NCBI RefSeq assembly: GCF_006345805.1
Contig: NW_021827713.1
Location: 1-10,051, forward strand
Direction of reading: 5' to 3'
DNA length: 10,051 nucleotides
DNA from: Octopus sinensis
Lineage: Eukaryota
Positions 798 to 9,817 of the stretch are shown piece by piece. Both the position numbers and the translations under genes were made by a program. The notes under the pieces were generated by a model. The model had not been told where the DNA came from and did not search any database. It worked only from the letters and a program-made list of their open reading frames with translations. How positions within the stretch are numbered: position 1 is the stretch's first letter; each line of letters starts with the position of its first letter.

Positions 798-832
798 TTA
801 CTTTTGTTGTTTCTTTATCATCTTCACGAATT
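798..832 (-). CDS. Terminal coding exon of the squidulin-like gene, (E)FVKMIKKQQK*
   Basis: Minus strand reads attaatattcttgctactttcatttcag|AA TTC GTG AAG ATG ATA AAG AAA CAA CAA AAG TAA. A phase-1 join with the 8494 exon gives YEEFVKM, the expected end of EF4. Confidence 0.9.
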
Positions 833-1349
833 CTGAAATGAAAGTAGCAAGAATATTAATACGTGTACACTTCCAGAGATTCTCAATATAGAAAAAACTT
901 CGTAGCGCTCAAATAATTTGAACATACACTCCCAAACGTTTATCGAGGACCAAGTGCCATGGTGTGGCTAGAAGGGGAATCCAGGTGAGCAGATGTGGAA
1001 ACAATGATGCAAATAAACAAATAAAACGGTTTGGGTGAGATGTACAAAATATGTATATAGATATGTACACATGTATGCATGTAAAAAGAAAGCAAAGGCA
1101 GATATATTTTAGACGATGAGTATTCAAGTATAAATATATATTGACACAGCAAACTTACAGACAGAATATAGGCTCAGAAAATTAAAGTGGGGAAGGTATG
1201 GTGTTACAAGTCCGACATCTGAGGCTTGGGGTTACTTCATAGCTTTGGCAAATAAACATGCAATAGATCCGGTCTCTCTATTCAGTGTGCAGCGATAAAA
1301 ATCTAACATTTTTCACCTCATGATGTAGGGAAATTTAAATGTAGAAACT

Positions 1350-1416
1350 TATATATATATATATATATATAAATATTATATATATATATATATATTATAC
1401 ATATATATATATATAT

Positions 1417-1468
<52 letters not shown>
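1350..1468. repeat. (AT)n microsatellite
   Basis: Directly visible. Confidence 0.95.
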
Positions 1469-1475
<7 letters not shown>

Positions 1476-1497
1476 TATCAAGATTAAAATTATTTTC

Positions 1498-2019
1498 ATT
1501 ATTATTATTGAGTGAAAGAGCAGCGCATGCCATCAAAGGGACACTGGGGTAAAATATACGAAGCCCAGTATACCCATCATGACTACCCGTTTGATAAGGG
1601 TACACGAAGCACAGGCATCACAACCATATGTGCACAACATGGTGATCACATATCAAGATAAACAGCGCATTAACTTGCAGGTAGGGCCCAGCTAGGAATT
1701 TCTTCAGTCTGAATAGTCCATCCTGCTCAAAAGGTCCCTGAAAGGGTTTTTTTCAGAATGTTGAACGAAACACCCTTGTTTCCAGAGGTAAATTATTCAA
1801 ACCCCCAAGAATTTCTCCCAACACATGGCTATGATGCTCCCACACTACTTCGGCTCGTGATCCGAGATGCATATATCGTCAACCACCAAGGAACTTGTTC
1901 AACTGGTAAAGGTCAAACAACTGAGAAGCAAATCTGTGGTATTGAGCAGAGTATTTGCTGTAGCCCGTCTTTTATACCAAGAGAAATCAATGAACATGAT
2001 AACACTTCCAATTAGTTAA
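1498..2019 (-). mobile_element. 3' end of a non-LTR retroelement-like interspersed repeat with an (AAT)n tail, 5'-truncated
   Basis: Block of higher GC ending on the minus strand in CACTCAATAATAATAAT. It resembles a common octopus repeat from memory. No recognisable protein domain. Confidence 0.6.
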
Positions 2020-2024
2020 TATTT

Positions 2025-2182
2025 ATATTTTGTTGTGCCTGGGTAGAGCCATTTTCTGTTAGTGCCTTATTATTTAACACACGCACCGGTAAAGTTTCCA
2101 CTCAGTTATTTACTTTACCGGTGAGTGTCTTAAGTAATAAGGCACTAAAAGAAAATGACTCGCCCCAGGCACAACAAAATAT
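2025..2182. repeat. Fold-back palindrome, 71-bp arms (2025-2095 and 2112-2182), 16-nt loop
   Basis: ATATTTTGTTGTGCCTGGG...CACCGGTAAAGT versus ACTTTACCGGTG...CCCAGGCACAACAAAATAT; 64/71 complementary by hand count. Confidence 0.9.
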
Positions 2183-2243
2183 GCTTCAACCGCACGAACT
2201 CACATAAAGAATCTTGCCAACCAAATCCAAAAGGGAAATATAT

Positions 2244-2324
2244 AGAGAGAGTGACAGAGAGAGAGAGAGAGAAAGACAGACAGAGATGCAGGGAGAGAGG
2301 GAGATGTCTAGAGGGAGAGGGAGA
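2244..2324. repeat. (AG)n-rich purine tract
   Basis: Directly visible. Confidence 0.85.
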
Positions 2325-2874
2325 TAGTATATAGACCAATTCGTTGATAGACATACAAAGAGGTAGGTAAGTAGATGAGTAATTAATAGACAAACAAAAT
2401 TCAAATACATGAGTTCATTTGTCTTAGACTTGACTAACTTGAACATCTGCCTCAGTCAACGTTTAAAAAGTTTTGCTCACAAAGAAAGCAGGGACAACAC
2501 CGTTTATGCTAAAGCAATTTACACCTTTATTTGAGGAATGTGTAAATATCTTATAATTGGCTTGCTTCAAGGAAAGAACATGGTTGTGCTGAAAATATTA
2601 TTTGAGCGAGAAGTAATGTTCCACACCTGCTTCTTAATTGCTTATTCATGCGAATTCTTGATTACTCGAGATTATCTCCCCCTTCAATTCGGAGTTGGTT
2701 CCATTCACTGCTAGGTGTTCGTATAGTTACCTTTCCACAAAGCGAAAATAATTTTACTAGCTCAAGAGGATACATCATGTATAGGTCTTATAGTTTTTTG
2801 CTCTCGTCTCCTCTCGTGTCTCCCTTTTGCACACAAAGACCCATATGTTGTTAAATCTAAGAGGTGTTACAGGA

Positions 2875-2877
<3 letters not shown>

Positions 2878-2922
<45 letters not shown>

Positions 2923-3050
2923 TATATATATAATATTATATATATATGTATACATATATAAATATATTGTATCATATATAAATTATATGTATACATATAT
3001 ACATATGTGTGTTTGTGTATATAATATATAATAAATATATATATATATAT
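2878..3050. repeat. (AT)n microsatellite, imperfect
   Basis: Directly visible. Confidence 0.95.
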
Positions 3051-3678
3051 TGATTTTTTTAATGTCTCTACCCCCATATTTGCGTGAGTTGAATTGAGCA
3101 AACCTATATGAGAGAGGTTTTTCTTAAGTATTAGAAATAGTTTAAAAAAGTTTTTAGCTGCTATTTCTAATGAGTTCAGTATGCGGCAAAGTAATTTATT
3201 TTCTAAGCCCTTTTATATATGTAATAATTTGAATTCGCCTTAAATGGTCCCTTTGCATACTGATACTTGGTGAAATTGATTAATTAATTAATTTTACCTC
3301 AATTGTTGAAATTATATATATATATATATAGGTATGAAGCAAAAGTAGAGCTAGTTTTGTAAACATTATCGACGCACATACACAGTGATATGTTTTATAT
3401 AATTTTTTTCCTTGTAAGTTCGGATTTTATTTCCTCAAATAATAATTATATGTATATATATATATACATTAAATCGTAACCGCATTACATTATCGTAATT
3501 CAGCATGTGGATTATGTAAGATTAGCGCGTGACTAATATCACGAAAGAATTTTTATTTCAATTTGTTTCCCTTCCTGACAGCATAAGTAAATCGCACTAT
3601 AGAAAATTGCAATGTGTTGTATAGTTTGAGAGAGATGTCGATACTTTATTTGTTTCGTGCATTTTTAAATACATGCTT

Positions 3679-3682
3679 ACAT

Positions 3683-3718
<36 letters not shown>

Positions 3719-3797
3719 ACATATATTACATATATATTTTTAAACATATATAACTATATACATATATATTCATACAAATGTATACATTACATTATAT

Positions 3798-3833
<36 letters not shown>

Positions 3834-3835
3834 CA
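3679..3835. repeat. Compound (CA)n/(AT)n microsatellite
   Basis: Directly visible. Confidence 0.9.
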
Positions 3836-4201
3836 TCTAATGTATATAGTGTTCACTTCCGGACTCTCTCACTCTGTGAAAGATTATAGTTCGAATCACA
3901 CGTGTCTCGAGATGTGCTGAAGATTTTCTATTTTGGATATATTTGGGGGTACTTAGGTCTGCTCAGGACTGTGCTTGCTTTTTCCATGGTTATGAGTAAG
4001 TATTTCATTTATGTCTTACGTATTTATCGCTGACGATATTATGAATTAACTCTGAAATTGGGACCAATACGGTAATAACGGAATTTTTAGAAATTTCTAT
4101 CGGCTTGTTTCGAGACGCATTAATTATAATGGTTATTGACAATTTGTCAATTTTCGGCATATTTGGCATTAGAATTTTTCTTTTGCCCTTATTTTATAAG
4201 T

Positions 4202-4233
<32 letters not shown>

Positions 4234-4238
<5 letters not shown>

Positions 4239-4447
4239 ATTGCACGATACAAATATATGAAAGTATTTTTTCGAACGCAGAGTTGCCGTTAGAACAGCAG
4301 AAATATTGGGTAAACTATCCTTACAAGACTGGTTGTTGTCAAAATTTTCCGTCTTCTAAGGGTAATTTACCCAGTATTTCTGCCGTTCTAACGGCAACAG
4401 TGCATTGAAAAAATTTTTATCTACTTATTCGTATCGTACAATACACA
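4234..4447. repeat. Fold-back palindrome, about 96-bp imperfect arms, 21-nt loop
   Basis: Inner arms 4282-4329 and 4351-4398 pair at 43/48. Outer arms are TGTGTATTGCACGATACAAATA and TATTCGTATCGTACAATACACA. The sequence is homologous to 7721-7790. Confidence 0.9.
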
Positions 4448-4461
4448 TTTCGACGTTGCCT

Positions 4462-4568
4462 TATATATATATATATATATATATATTATATTATATGTGG
4501 TGTGTGTGTGTGTATGTGTGTGAGTGCGTATATATATATATATATATATGTATATGTGTGTGAGTGCG

Positions 4569-4601
<33 letters not shown>

Positions 4602-4675
4602 TATATATATATATAATACATATATATATAAAATGATATGTATATTTATGTTGTGGTGTGTGTTTGTGTGTGTGT
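4462..4675. repeat. Compound (AT)n/(GT)n microsatellite with an internal 40-bp duplication (4511-4590)
   Basis: TATGTGTGTGAGTGCGTATATATA occurs twice, 40 bp apart. Confidence 0.9.
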
Positions 4676-4962
4676 AGTAGGAAATAGCGGACTAAATATT
4701 TGAGCCATCATATTGTAAAGAATACCCAATCACTATAAATATCTTATAAATATTAAAGATCATCATTTACATTGTGAGTGATATTTCTGGAGTCTAAATC
4801 ATGTCTCAAGCTAACTATTGATATACGTACATGCTAATCCATTAACCTACAGAGACGTTGACTTCCCACATATATCTATAAATAAATTTACCTTTGCGTA
4901 CTTAATAAGCATACATGTAAACACTTCCACCCAGTTTTCCTCTCTCCTCCTCTCGATGAATA

Positions 4963-5025
4963 TTCGTGCATGTTTGATTATTGTTCTTGCCTCGGAACCA
5001 CAACGTTCCAGGTTCGTATCATCTT
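4963..5025 (+). mobile_element. Degenerate tRNA-derived repeat head
   Basis: CTTGCCTCGGAACCACAACGTTCCAGGTTCGTATC contains a B-box-like GGTTCG and resembles octopus SINE heads. The A box is decayed. Confidence 0.35.
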
Positions 5026-5408
5026 GAGTAAGTATCATTTACCAAAGTTCCAGGCCGATCAAACCACCTGAGCGAAATTGGGTACACGGGAACTCTGTTG
5101 CTAACTAATTTTATAAATTGATCACAGAATTTAAAGGCCCGGTCTTGTCACACAACCTATTTTTGATGATTCTGTCGGATGTATATTTTTAGGGTACACT
5201 TGACCAAGGGATGCCCCAGCCACTTACCAATGATTGAATGGTGAAACATATTTATCGAACAACTGAAAACCCATCGTGGAAACCGACGAAAATCCATTTA
5301 CTTACTTAGAAGTACCCAGATAGATAGATATGTATAAATGTATGTGTACATCAATGTATGTACATACGTATGTGACAGTATATATAAATATGTATGAAAG
5401 AGAGAGTA

Positions 5409-5412
<4 letters not shown>

Positions 5413-5451
<39 letters not shown>
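5413..5451. repeat. (TG)n microsatellite
   Basis: Directly visible. Confidence 0.95.
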
Positions 5452-5453
<2 letters not shown>

Positions 5454-6194
5454 TGGTGTTTACTAACTTAACGCTCTTCTCAATTATGCGATCTTTCCTA
5501 CTTAACAGAGTTGGCATATATCATGTTGTCGCTGAATGAATCTCAGAGTTTTATTTTGTCATTTCAAATGTCTCGAAAAGCTGTTAAATGTTGGCAATGA
5601 ACCAAAGCTATTTAGCCTTTAACTCTTTTGCTGTTATTGATCAATGCTGCTTCAAATGTGTGAGCTGATCTTTAAAGATTGGTTGTTCAGTTAACAGTTG
5701 GCAAGTAAACCTGTGCAAAAATGATGGAGGGGAAATATCTGCGTGTTTCGAAGATATGAGATGATTTTCTCGGTTTCCATGGCTTATTCTGCCACGACAT
5801 TAGGTTCAAGCATGAGAATACATGAAAAATGCTAACGTAAAATAAAATTACCTTTTATGAATTTCAGAGTATACAGACTCCTCATAAAAATTAGTTTCTT
5901 GCTTCAGTAGAATCAAACATATATATTGAATGGGTATACGTATGGTTGGTTGAATAGTGTCCGGTACACAAATATTTATCGAGAAAGGAAGAAATGATAC
6001 TTTATTTATTTCCATCCAACTCAGATGAGCTGGCAAAAATGCTAATTCGATCTCGGTTGGAAATTTCATATATGGTCGTAGTAGAATGAAATTAAATATT
6101 GTCAGCTAATGTATCACAAAGCCAGCACTCTGCGGATCTAATATGGACCACCCTCTAATTCCTATTAATATTTCTTTTAGACAGTGAGACATGG

Positions 6195-6487
6195 CCAACA
6201 GTACTGAGATAAAAGTGTAGACATTTTATCGACCATGAAAGGATCAATAGTCAAGCTGACCAAGACTGAATTAAAAACTACAAACGTGAAAGTTCACTTT
6301 GTTTGGCAGCCTAACTTTAAAGTTTCTGCCATTTATCATTCACCAATATAAAATTATATTGATTTCTAACGCTATCACAATGCCCCAACGTTTTGGAATG
6401 GAATATAATCTATTAAATGAGCTATCAATATTTGAGTAGTCCTTTAATTTATCGACACTAATGATAAACGGCAGAGTTGACCACAGG
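6195..6487 (-). mobile_element. Two old, diverged SINE fragments (Meta-domain-like)
   Basis: TTTTATCGACCATGAAAGGATC...AAGCTGACC at about 6225-6262 and TTTATCGACAC...AGAGTTGACC at about 6448-6482 resemble the antisense of the CATCCTTTCGGGGTCGATAAAAT motif. Confidence 0.45.
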
Positions 6488-7183
6488 AGAGGTCAGTTGC
6501 TCTTTTCTGTTTCAAATACCTACATAAAAGCTCGGTAATATTGTTGGAGATTTATAAATTTGCCAATACAACTGCTGTTCTTCGAATATTTAAACCGGTT
6601 ACTTTGAACTCCTCTGATTCTGAACTCCTCTGACTCAACTAACGAATAAACTTTTCGTTAAAACAATAAATACGGGTAATATATTGCGAACATCGACACA
6701 AAGATGGTATGTTCTGCATTCGTCGCACAATAAATCACAGCTAAATCTCTCTGGATCTCAACTTCCTAATGATAAAAACGGTAGGGCGCATATACTAATA
6801 TAGGACTAAATGTAGAAAACTGCGGTGTAATCACCGTTAGAATGATTTTGATTGTATAAATCTGGATAAGACATGAAAAACAGCAATGATTATCTTATCA
6901 GATTCCATTTATTGGTTTAAGAAAACTATCAGCCTATAAAGGAGTGAAACAGCATAACATTATATTTATTCGCATGATACTATCTGTTAGCAACCATTAT
7001 ATCATGAAACCAAATAAATTATGATACTATATTATCCTATAGCCTATCATGTGGTGACCAAATTGACCGGAACAGAAGTAAAAATTAGTGATTCACATCT
7101 ATTATGTAACATGTAGACAGACGTAAACCTTCATACATTCACATACACAAATCCACACAGACAGGTGTATATATATAATGCAT

Positions 7184-7236
7184 GTCTCTCTCTCTCTCTT
7201 TCTCTCTCTTTCTTTCTCTCTCTCTCTCTCTCTCTC
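7184..7236. repeat. (TC)n microsatellite
   Basis: Directly visible. Confidence 0.95.
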
Positions 7237-7640
7237 CAGCTGTCACATCCTCCCTATTCCACGGATTAAAAGTATTGATGCCTGCGTGCACCTATGTAGG
7301 AAGCGAAAACAATTAGCGAAAGTATAGCGTAAGCAAGTGGTGCGTAAGCTTCATATGTGTGTGTGTATGTGTGTGCGTACAACTTGCCCGACACGCACTG
7401 ACACACATATCCACATGTACATACATTCATATTTAAATGTGTTGGTAAACCAGAGTACTTGGTATACTTGACGTTTGTGAAACGTAAATATAACACTGTC
7501 TCTCAGGTGCACGGTACATTTGGTTATTGGAAAATAGTCCCATTTATCAGCACTCAATGACATCTCAGTTCGAACACAAACGTATTACTAGCGCTACTTT
7601 GTCTGGCATTAAAACACCTAAAATATACAAATTTGTCAGC

Positions 7641-7790
7641 GGGCGGTTTAGCTTAATGGTAAAGCACTCAACCGGAGACTATGAGGGATATGGGCTCGAG
7701 TCCCATGGCTATTAGGTGATAAATTTTCCGCTTTGTAAGAGTTATTTACCCAGTATTTCTGATGTTCTAACGGTAATTCTGAGTTCAAAT
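7641..7790 (+). mobile_element. tRNA-like head (Pol III A/B boxes) joined to a repeat body; SINE-like fragment
   Basis: A box TAGCTTAATGG at 7649-7659, D stem GCTT/AAGC, T arm ATGGG-CTCGAGT-CCCAT at 7690-7706. There is no acceptor stem. The body at 7721-7790 matches 4342-4410. Confidence 0.65.
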
Positions 7791-7874
7791 GAAAATCATC
7801 TAATTTGTAGCATTCAATATTAAGTATGTATGTATGTATATATATATATATTATAATATATATATATATATATG

Positions 7875-8168
7875 TCAAAATAAGCAACAGGGATATCCAG
7901 AGGTAATGCAGTACGATCGCTTCATGCGACTCCATTTAATTGAACAATCCTTACTTCAATTTAAAATGTAGAGCAATCTTCAGCTGCACAAAAACATAGA
8001 ATTTAATTTAAATTTGAAGGATACATTAGTATAATTTTACCTAAAATCTCCAAGAGGATAAGGAGATAGACAAAGAAGATGTTTTACCAACAACATCACA
8101 GTTATAAATGGAGTCGCATGAAACGATCGTACTGCATTACCTGTGGATATCCTTGTTGCTTATTTTGA
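7875..8168. repeat. Inverted repeat, 64-bp arms (7875-7938 and 8105-8168) with 166-nt spacer; probable Penelope-like pseudo-LTR remnant
   Basis: Arms are 61/64 complementary by hand count, contain the 3' half of the hammerhead motif, and lie between (AT)n tracts. Confidence 0.85.
7906..7989 (-). ncRNA. Putative type I hammerhead ribozyme (Penelope-like minimal stem III), A15.1G variant
   Basis: Minus strand reads GTGCAG-CTGAAGA-[53-nt hairpin]-GAAG-C-GATC-G-TA-CTGCAT. Stem I is GTGCAG/CTGCAT. Stem II is TGC/GCA, CTC/GAG, CATTT/AAATG and AATTGAA/TTCAATT. Loop III is the palindrome GATC and the cleavage triplet GUA is at 7914-7912. Folded by eye. Confidence 0.65.
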
Positions 8169-8493
8169 TTTTAATCACCTTATTTTAAATTGTATAGATA
8201 ATACTAAACTAAATTCTGGTGCCTCAACTTAAGTACCATATTCATCTGAGTCTAAATTTTAAATATATATATATATATATATATGTTGAGAGTGCGAAGA
8301 AGAATGGGACGGGGATGACTGATAGATGGGCAGATAAATAGACAAATCATTTAAAATCGTATTTTTGACGAAATCAGTCTGGATTCCATGGTCACGTGGC
8401 TTGATGCCTCTGCTCACATTATACTTCTCTGAATCTCCGAACAATGTCTGTAAAGGTAAACACACGTCAATAAATAGAATTCTTAATATTTAC

Positions 8494-8739
8494 CTTCATA
8501 ACTGACCATCCCATCACCATCCATATCTGCCTCTTTCATCATATCTTCTAGTTCTCCTTCGGTCAGCTTTTCTTCCGAGAAACTAAGCATGACTTGACGC
8601 AGTTCGGTAGCTGTTATAAGTCCATTACCATCTTTATCGAACACCTTGAAAGCTTCTTTCATTTCCCTCTCTGCGTCTGGTGGACCCATCTGTCTCGCCA
8701 TCATCTCCACAAATTCGGGATATTCGATTGTGCCATTTC
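8494..8739 (-). CDS. Internal coding exon of a calmodulin-like four-EF-hand protein, squidulin-like (end of EF2, linker, EF3, EF4 loop)
   Basis: Translates as (G)[81 protein letters not shown](E), with canonical loops [12 protein letters not shown] and [12 protein letters not shown]. Acceptor is ttttcttctag at 8750-8740 and donor is G|gtaaat at 8493. Both are phase 1, at the conserved calmodulin intron positions. TIEYxEFVEMMAxQMGP, GLIT and FSxEKLT match squid squidulin as I recall it, rather than true calmodulin. Confidence 0.95.
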
Positions 8740-9076: not shown

Positions 9077-9817
9077 GCGCCCTTTTAAAGCCTAGCCAGG
9101 CTCATGGGCCCGGTTTCCCAGTTTCTATGGCGTATATGTTCCCTAGGTGGACGGGACGCCAGTCCATCGCAGCGTTACTCATTTTTGCCATCTGAGTGGA
9201 CTGGAGCAACATGAAATGAAGTGTTTTGCTCAAGAACACAACGCGTCGACCGGTCCAGGAATCGAAACCACAATCTTATGATCATGATGCTGACACCCTA
9301 ACCACTAAGCCACGAACCTCCACTTGCGTCCTTTTAAAGCCTAGCCAGGCTCATGGGCCCGGTTTTCCGGTTTCTATGGCGTATGTGTTCCCCAGCTGAA
9401 CGGGGCGCCAGTCCATCGCAGCGTTACTCATTTTTGCCAGCTGAGTGGACTGGAGAAACGTGAAATGAAACGTTTTGCTCAAAAACACAACGCGTCGCCC
9501 GGTCCAGGAATCGAAACCACAATCTTACGATCATGATGCTGACACCCTAACCACTAAGCCACGCACCTCCACTTGCGTCCTTTTAAAGCCTAACTAGGCT
9601 TATGGGCCCGGTTTCCCAGTTTCAGTGGCGTATGTGTTCCCCAGGTGGACGGGACGCCAGTCCACCGCAGCGTTACTCATTTTTGCCAGCTGAGTGGACT
9701 GGAGGAACGTGAGATGAAACGTTTTGCTCAAAAACACAACGCGTCGCCCGGTCCAGGAATCGAAACCACAATCTTACGAGCATGGTACTGACACACTAAC
9801 CACTAAGCCATGCGCCT
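9077..9817 (-). mobile_element. Head-to-tail trimer of a 249-bp tRNA-derived SINE with a CORE-like domain (units 9077-9325, 9326-9574, 9575-9817)
   Basis: On the minus strand each unit starts with A box TGGCTTAGTGG and B box GGTTTCGATTCC (tRNA-Arg-like head). It continues with TTGTGTTCTTGAGCAAAACACTTCA...CTCAGCTGGCAAAAATGAG, resembling the CORE domain. A T-run at 9075-9068 ends the array. Units 1 and 2 differ at about 17 of 249 positions. Confidence 0.88.

What the first reader, a model, noticed from the sequence alone, without database searches (positions are those of the whole stretch)
7906..7989. Hammerhead ribozyme fold in the sense strand of the squidulin-like intron, with an unusually long stem II
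Seen in sequence: the core elements occur in order on the minus strand (CUGAAGA 7983-7977, GAA 7923-7921, GUA 7914-7912). There is a 6-bp stem I, a 53-nt hairpin stem II and a 2-bp stem III capped by palindromic GAUC. Established knowledge: short palindromic stem III type I hammerheads characterise Penelope-like elements and often cleave as dimers. Inference: it would be co-transcribed about 500 nt after the splice donor and could cut the pre-mRNA between 7912 and 7911. Caveats: position 15.1 is G instead of A, and the base of stem II is a U-U mismatch, so this copy may be weak or inactive.
Basis: partly seen in the sequence, partly recalled or inferred. Interest (0 to 1): 0.75.

Follow-up and report, generated by a model that had tools for sequence, protein, structure and literature searches.

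The report
Disabled long-armed hammerhead, octopus retrotransposon fossil
This is a real hammerhead (self-cutting RNA) motif from the tail of a Penelope-like jumping gene that landed in an intron of an octopus calcium-binding gene, but this copy has a damaged catalytic core and an adjacent inverted copy predicted to smother it, so it likely does not cut, while its unusually long arm is shared by thousands of intact relatives in the genome.

Summary
The motif is the type I hammerhead in the 3' terminal repeat of a Hydra-clade Penelope-like retroelement: longer copies link it to RT and GIY-YIG coding sequence. A strict pattern for intact cores with a 54-62 nt stem II has 7,394 matches in this genome (control 0). 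Across sister families all three stems covary. The stem III palindrome also covaries at positions too close to pair within one strand, which supports dimer cleavage. The U-U at the base of stem II is normal for the clade. It lies sense in a 7,661-nt intron of squidulin-like, spliced in three studies; cutting there is unlikely. Cleavage is untested. Published Hydra hammerheads have 12-26 nt stem II, so the long arm is a variant; a spike-moss PLE has one of about 54 nt. This scan already reported the long-armed family on other DNA (26 notes).

The parts
7875..8107 (-). Sense arm: 5'-truncated 3' terminal-repeat fragment of a Hydra-clade Penelope-like element, short 3' end, sense to the host gene
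   Evidence: 2543 candidates, 40 scored, 39 other full-length copies 89-94% identical; 89% to the 3' end of the RT+EN-bearing copy L125
7906..7989 (-). Type I hammerhead motif, decayed (predicted cut site 7912|7911)
7984..7989 (-). Stem I, 5' strand
   Evidence: pairs with 7911-7906; 4 of 6 pairs change on both sides across families
7977..7983 (-). Core CUGAAGA (C3-A9)
   Evidence: each position kept in 26-28 of 28 other copies
7924..7976 (-). Long stem II, 53 nt (family 58 nt); U-U at the base; 5-nt deletion near 7950 removes the apical helix
7913..7923 (-). GAA (7923-7921), mutated G15.1 (7920) and palindromic mini stem III
   Evidence: A15.1 in 28 of 28 other copies and in 97 of the 100 listed of 411 pattern matches
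7906..7912 (-). A17 and stem I 3' strand
8105..8260 (+). Inverted arm of the same element: 3' half of the hammerhead only (keeps A15.1, lacks CUGANGA) plus the long 3' tail; antisense in the host pre-mRNA and transcribed before the ribozyme
   Evidence: duplex -105.3 kcal/mol
7834..7873 (.). (TA)n target microsatellite on one side of the insertion
   Evidence: sequence
8262..8284 (.). (TA)n target microsatellite on the other side
   Evidence: sequence
8494..8739 (-). Penultimate coding exon of the host squidulin-like (calmodulin-family EF-hand) gene
   Evidence: Pfam EF-hand; 100% identical over 82 aa to P0031 squidulin-like, Octopus; contigs
833..8493 (-). Host intron, 7,661 nt, GT..AG, containing the insertion
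   Evidence: contigs of X1, X3, X7 leave at 8494 into letters equal to window 803-832; acceptor found
798..832 (-). Coding part of the last exon (EFVKMIKKQQK, stop)

Best explanation
This is a decayed copy of the type I hammerhead carried in the 3' terminal repeat of an octopus Hydra-clade Penelope-like retrotransposon, inserted as a head-to-head inverted pair into a (TA)n in a squidulin-like intron, and it likely does not cut the host pre-mRNA. Shown: the motif, its family, the link to RT and GIY-YIG sequence, the covariation, the two lesions of this copy, the inverted arm and the intron. Inferred: in the active element two hammerheads (one per terminal repeat of a tandem transcript) pair through their 8-nt palindromes to make a stable stem III and cut the precursor RNA; a lone hammerhead stays uncut, which would explain why most genomic copies run across the cut site. 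The long stem II is a conserved rod under structural selection in the element lineage, role untested. In the host transcript this copy is predicted to be trapped in a 64-bp duplex with the upstream inverted arm.
For: Family. Link to coding sequence: L125 has RT-region and EN matches to the intact 947-aa L123 protein (43-69% identity) and, about 2 kb on, the hammerhead region at 89% to the window; also L130, L061, L062, L135. Hydra motifs in L123: RWK, ADKT, YRDD, CxCX5C, GIY-YIG, CxxC, LLN, CxH (vs PMC8557442 section 11). L122 has 483-bp direct repeats (99.4%) on both sides of its ORF, each with a long-armed hammerhead. Covariation: 16 of 30 pairs change on both sides, score 0.384 vs 0.201, 0 of 500 shuffles, slid controls <=0.113. 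Palindrome pair at columns 84/87 is G-C in 7 and A-U in 5 of 15 rows with only 2 nt between, so it cannot pair within one strand. Monomer stem III +2.1 to +2.4 kcal/mol, palindrome duplex about -10. Inactivation: G15.1; changes at 15.1 cost at least 10-fold (PMC3088659) or over 100-fold (PMC4075628); duplex. 24 of 30 position-ordered copies run 25 nt or more past the cut site.
Against: No cleavage was measured. The structure was drawn by hand from these 15 rows, which are related, so the shuffle count is not a probability; RNAalifold recovers stems I and II only in part, and pairs UGA of the core with stem III instead. Of six EN-linked copies of this exact family shown, five carry a change in the core or palindrome, and no intact ORF of this exact family was found, so Hydra motifs were read fully only in sister families. 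G15.1-U16.1 keeps the palindrome duplex (-10.6 kcal/mol), so residual trans activity is not excluded. Equilibrium folding may overstate how fast the duplex forms. Three of 100 listed copies also have G15.1.
Confidence: 0.85

Rival explanations
1. The copy is a working intronic ribozyme that cuts the squidulin-like pre-mRNA co-transcriptionally and tunes its output.
For: Sense orientation, 504 nt after the donor; all core positions but 15.1 intact; the gene is expressed and spliced; slow intronic hammerheads need not block splicing (PMC2995048 passages), so normal splicing does not exclude cutting.
Against: G15.1; loss of the apical helix; the antisense arm is made first and pairs at 0.99+ as soon as the 3' half emerges (prefix folds); even without the arm stem I forms with probability about 0.04; no partner hammerhead in the contig; 13 differing columns over 223 nt against the family majority look like neutral decay.
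Confidence: 0.04
2. The motif is a structured RNA handle: the family kept the hammerhead fold and long stem II mainly as a binding site for the element's RT-EN protein, with little or no cleavage even in intact copies.
For: Stem II is conserved in length (56-60 nt) and fold across families (z -2.0 to -4.7 in five sister families); most copies span the cut site; metazoan PLE hammerheads cleave poorly in vitro even as dimers (PMC4209133).
Against: The catalytic core and the dimer palindrome are invariant or covary, which is what selection on catalysis predicts; Hydra elements with 12-26 nt stem II transpose too, and a 17-nt stem II occurs beside a related EN here (L095). Not exclusive with the best explanation.
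Confidence: 0.1
3. The motif is a chance match in AT-rich repeat DNA.
For: No Rfam hammerhead hit; unremarkable folding z-score.
Against: 0 of 300 shuffles; 7,394 vs 0 genomic matches; covariation; position in PLE terminal repeats.
Confidence: 0.01

Closest known systems
Hammerheads of Hydra-clade Penelope-like elements (Craig et al. 2021, PMC8557442, section 11, File S2; includes Hydra-1_Obim of Octopus bimaculoides)
   Same: Type I topology near the 3' end, tiny self-complementary stem III, (TA)n targets, inverted 5'-truncated arm, U-U at the base of stem II (14 of 26 rows), same protein motifs.
   Different: Stem II is 12-26 nt in those 26 rows against 56-60 nt here; Hydra-1_Obim has a different, short hammerhead; described elements are generally under 3 kb, while this family is about 5.3 kb with about 2.2 kb after the ORF (L125).
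Metazoan PLE minimal hammerheads (Cervera and de la Pena 2014, PMC4209133); dimer-cleaving PLE variants (Lunse et al., seen only as a reference title)
   Same: In the terminal repeats, palindromic 15.2-16.2 region, dimer logic, pairs of motifs on opposite strands 100-700 bp apart.
   Different: Helix II there is 6-8 bp with a conserved G10.1-C11.1; here a three-segment rod with G-C, A-U, G-U or U-U at that position.
PLE-X1_sMoe hammerhead of spike moss (PMC8557442 File S2, flagged as deviating)
   Same: A PLE hammerhead with about 54 nt between the two core halves: a precedent for a long stem II.
   Different: Unrelated EN-less plant clade, one row, no palindromic dimer stem shown, no covariation analysis seen.
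Functional intronic ribozymes such as CPEB3 (search listing only) and the amniote intronic hammerheads (recalled)
   Same: A ribozyme motif in the sense strand of an intron.
   Different: Those are conserved single loci with intact cores; this is one decayed copy among thousands of repeats.

Membership tests
Type I hammerhead ribozyme | CUGANGA, GAAA, UH in order around three stems, open at stem I | tested here: met
   Family: every core position kept in 26-28 of 28 copies; window copy meets all but A15.1
Type I hammerhead ribozyme | A15.1-U16.1 pair | tested here: not met
   Window copy has G at 7920. Met by the family (28 of 28) and by the adjacent inverted arm
Type I hammerhead ribozyme | Stems I and II supported by covariation | tested here: met
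   4 of 6, 8 of 13 and 3 of 7 pairs change on both sides; related rows, hand-drawn structure
Type I hammerhead ribozyme | Match to an Rfam hammerhead model | tested here: not met
   No hammerhead among 44 matches at E<=10; the long stem II probably falls outside the models (inference)
Type I hammerhead ribozyme | Self-cleavage after H17 | not testable with these tools
   Needs an assay; only assembled contigs were available
Dimer-cleaving PLE hammerheads | Short stem III with a palindrome able to pair between two copies | tested here: met
   CGAUCG / CAAUUG / CGUACG across families; monomer hairpin +2.4, duplex -10 kcal/mol
Dimer-cleaving PLE hammerheads | Two copies in one transcript (terminal repeats) | tested here: inconclusive
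   Met in sister element L122; not met at this locus, where the second arm is inverted and lacks CUGANGA
Hydra-clade Penelope-like element | Single ORF with RT and C-terminal GIY-YIG | tested here: met
   Broken but collinear in this family (L125, L130, L064); intact 947 aa in sister L123; Pfam GIY-YIG only E=0.011, below cut-off
Hydra-clade Penelope-like element | RWK, DKT, CxCX5C linker, CxxC and CxH around E and N | tested here: met
   All in L123; in this family ADKT (L130), CKC, CxxC (L061) and CxH (L062) seen in separate broken copies
Hydra-clade Penelope-like element | (TA)n insertion, 5' truncation, inverted arm, tail at one end only | tested here: met
   Window anatomy; inverted arm adjacent in 16 of 30 copies
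Hydra-clade Penelope-like element | Length generally under 3 kb | tested here: not met
   L125 spans about 5.3 kb; a descriptive trait in the paper, not diagnostic
Hydra-clade Penelope-like element | Phylogenetic placement of the RT among reference Hydra proteins | not tested
   Reference sequences were seen only as supplement text; resemblance to Hydra-1_Obim is by eye

The most novel reading that the evidence does not exclude
Octopus Hydra retrotransposons carry a distinct long-armed hammerhead subtype (over 7,000 intact cores, invisible to Rfam) that is gated by dimerisation: tandem precursors are cut, while a short RNA started at an initiator-like site about 195 nt before the cut site holds one hammerhead, escapes cleavage and is retrotransposed as a 235-330 nt non-autonomous unit, with the conserved 56-60 nt stem II as the handle for the RT-endonuclease. 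The window copy would be one such unit.
Probability: 0.25. Interest if true: 0.6.

Novelty: new variant of a known kind. Interest (0 to 1): 0.3.

Why it matters
For this locus, little: it is a dead repeat copy, and it warns that a hammerhead read off an intron must be folded with its flank, because PLE insertions often bring their own antisense arm. For the family, it gives thousands of natural variants, including near-intact elements with a hammerhead in both terminal repeats (L122), to test what PLE hammerheads do, which is still open (PMC8557442 calls their function unclear). It also shows that standard models miss a very abundant ribozyme form in this genome. The recurring 5' boundary offers a testable start site for the terminal-repeat RNA.

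Tried and rejected
Rfam scan: no hammerhead hit. Plain MFE folding does not give the active fold for this or intact copies (active monomer 3.6-6.5 kcal/mol above MFE), so it does not discriminate. U-U as a sign of decay: rejected (PMC3088659 reports U10.1-U11.1 in natural hammerheads). G15.1 as an A-to-I editing scar: not supported, only 2 of the 13 differing columns are A-to-G. Cap-derived extra G at the 5' boundary: 5 of 18, p=0.21, and the 'short' class held about five misclassified long copies: inconclusive. RNA evidence: no RNA holder listed on record; contigs cannot show cut ends, and depth over the repeat comes from paralogues. Presence of this insertion and of G15.1 in other samples or species: unresolved, contigs break at the (TA)n runs. 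Naiad clade: rejected, EN is C-terminal. Retrozyme: rejected, no tandem units here and a coding master exists. Lunse et al. not held. Literature searches found no paper on long-stem-II hammerheads in cephalopod PLEs; this does not prove absence, and the supplements of PMC4209133 and the Lunse paper were not seen and may show such variants.

Full report
OBSERVATION. A relaxed type I descriptor finds this one site in the window and none in 300 dinucleotide shuffles. Folding energy alone is unremarkable (z -0.72) and Rfam gives no hammerhead among 44 matches at E<=10.

THE REPEAT. The window is a whole 10,051-nt contig of a 2.72-Gb genome. The stretch 7875-8100 has 2,543 candidates; 40 were scored and the 39 other full-length ones are 89-94% identical. 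The insertion is a head-to-head pair between two (TA)n runs: a sense arm 8107-7875 and an inverted arm 8105-8260. The arms share 64 nt at 95%. The inverted arm holds only the 3' half of the hammerhead, with the canonical A15.1, and about 95 nt of extra tail. In 30 copies taken in genome order, 16 have an adjacent inverted arm and 18 an intact core.

THE MASTER ELEMENT. Walking 5' through longer copies reached a GIY-YIG frame about 2 kb upstream of the hammerhead (L061, L062) and RT fragments (L064). Protein searches gave 17,108 and 7,410 candidates, 150 scored each. L123 has an intact 947-aa frame with RWK, ADKT, YRDD, CxCX5C, VIYK-YIG, CxxC, LLN and CxH. These are the Hydra-clade marks of Craig et al. 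2021 (PMC8557442; I read the abstract, passages, sections 6 and 11, supplement parts 1-2 and searched rows). L125 and L130 are broken full-length copies of the window's own family: they match L123 along RT and EN (40-79% identity) and carry the hammerhead region at 86-90% identity to the window. No intact frame of this exact family was found. Sister element L122 has 483-bp direct repeats (99.4%) on both sides of its ORF, each with a long-armed hammerhead, the classic PLE layout.

THE LONG ARM IS A LINEAGE TRAIT. A strict pattern (intact core, 54-62 nt spacer, palindrome) matches 7,394 times against 0 for the reversed control. From 111 hits (81 distinct, 19 clusters) I aligned 14 representatives with a 56-60 nt stem II plus the window copy, leaving out clusters with other lengths or obvious indels. 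On a hand-drawn structure, 16 of 30 pairs change on both sides; covariation 0.384 vs 0.201 shuffled (0 of 500) and at most 0.113 when slid. The rows are related and the structure came from them, so this is support, not a p-value. RNAalifold recovers much of stems I and II but mispairs the core. Stem II alone folds with z -2.0 to -4.7 in five sister families and -1.35 in this family. The inner palindrome pair is G-C in 7, A-U in 5, G-U in 2 and unpaired in 1 of 15 rows; with 2 nt between, it can only pair across two molecules. The monomer stem III costs +2.4 kcal/mol and the 8-bp duplex gains -10. This fits the dimer model for PLE hammerheads (PMC4209133, parts 1-2 of 4 and passages; PMC6765202 passages).

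THIS COPY IS DAMAGED. Against the majority of 28 other copies it differs at 13 columns over 223 nt, among them G15.1 (A in 28 of 28) and a 5-nt deletion that removes the apical helix of stem II. Among 411 exact family matches, 97 of the 100 listed have A and 3 have G. The neighbouring arm has A, so the change probably arose after insertion (inference). Changes at 15.1 lower activity at least 10-fold (PMC3088659 passages) or over 100-fold (PMC4075628 passages). The U-U at the base of stem II is not damage: it is the family state, stands in 8 of 15 aligned rows as an unpaired cell, and in 14 of 26 Hydra rows of File S2 by my count.

HOST CONTEXT. The exon 8739-8494 is 100% identical to a 152-aa squidulin-like protein named for Octopus. 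Contigs from three runs of three studies join 8494 to letters equal to window 803-832 (the fourth run did not list this end), so the intron is 8493-833 and the hammerhead starts 504 nt after the donor, in sense. The polymerase transcribes the inverted arm first. The predicted duplex (-105 kcal/mol) pairs at about 0.99-1.0, already in prefixes that end before stem I is complete, and stem I, II and III pairing probabilities round to zero; without the arm stem I reaches only about 0.04. Normal splicing is weak evidence either way, since slow intronic hammerheads need not block it (PMC2995048 passages).

MECHANISM. Shown: anatomy, family, covariation, lesions, intron. Inferred: active elements transcribe two terminal repeats, the two hammerheads pair by their palindromes and cut; single ones do not. 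In line with this, 24 of 30 copies run at least 25 nt past the cut site, 2 stop near it and 4 earlier. Also, 19 of 30 copies begin within 25 nt of one point, the same as the window's 5' end; exact-match counts drop from 117 just inside to 16 just outside it (different patterns, so rough). Long copies read TCAGTT there (25 of 26 with C before AG), which resembles an initiator (recalled consensus) and overlaps a 5-bp inverted repeat. Drosophila Penelope has an internal promoter in its terminal repeat (PMC2377424 passages). A start site, a 3' splice site or an RT stop at the hairpin all remain possible; the cap-G test was inconclusive (5 of 18, p=0.21).

NOVELTY. Hammerheads in Hydra PLEs, including an octopus one, are published. 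Their stem II spans 12-26 nt in 26 rows; a spike-moss PLE row has about 54 nt. Searches found nothing on long-armed cephalopod forms; the giant squid paper only counts 235 Rfam hammerheads (passages) and the 'long helix II' of PMC13725137 is 6 bp (passages). The Lunse paper and the supplements of PMC4209133 were not seen. So the family is a new variant of a known kind. This scan has noted it before: 26 notes in at least 3 genomes, several in this one; these are not independent support, and the protein-docking idea for stem II comes from them and is untested here. None concerns this locus.

VERDICT. Real motif, right family, wrong functional inference for this copy. Interest 0.3.

Noticed in passing
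window 8100-8110 and L167-L196: 19 of 30 family copies start within 25 nt of the same 5' point, at a TCAGTT initiator-like word overlapping a short inverted repeat; the opposite arm starts at variable places. Possible start site of a short terminal-repeat RNA.
   Followed up: partly
window 7875-7938 with 8105-8168: A predicted 64-bp near-perfect double-stranded RNA in a well-expressed intron; a candidate A-to-I editing substrate in a cephalopod (inference; no matched reads).
   Followed up: no
L131:208-1843 and 2561-3155: Tandem units of about 540-600 nt each with a type I hammerhead (26-nt and 76-nt stem II, CGUACG palindrome): retrozyme-like arrays beside a Hydra element.
   Followed up: no
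L072:536-620, L132:1085-1168, L095:2508-2572, L117:9630-9723: Other hammerhead families in this genome with 17, 45-46 and 55 nt stem II and palindromes CAAUUG or CACGUG: a graded series of arm lengths.
   Followed up: no
L123:1498-4338: Intact 947-aa Hydra RT-EN frame with a long Asn-rich insert between RT and EN, and an inverted arm 100% identical over 1,499 nt: a very young, possibly active family.
   Followed up: partly
L061:6574-8540, L125:4630-2760: The window's family has about 2.1 kb of AT-rich non-coding 3' sequence with internal repeats about 67% alike, much longer than in described Hydra elements.
   Followed up: no
window 7642-7714 (+): tRNA-like stretch above the Rfam gathering score (33.3 bits), probably the head of a tRNA-derived SINE.
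   Followed up: no
window 9080-9810: Three tandem copies of an approximately 250-nt repeat upstream of the exon, in the preceding intron.
   Followed up: no
window 2050-2157 and 4279-4401: Long imperfect hairpins with terminal inverted repeats, MITE-like; part of the second resembles sequence at about 7740-7775.
   Followed up: no
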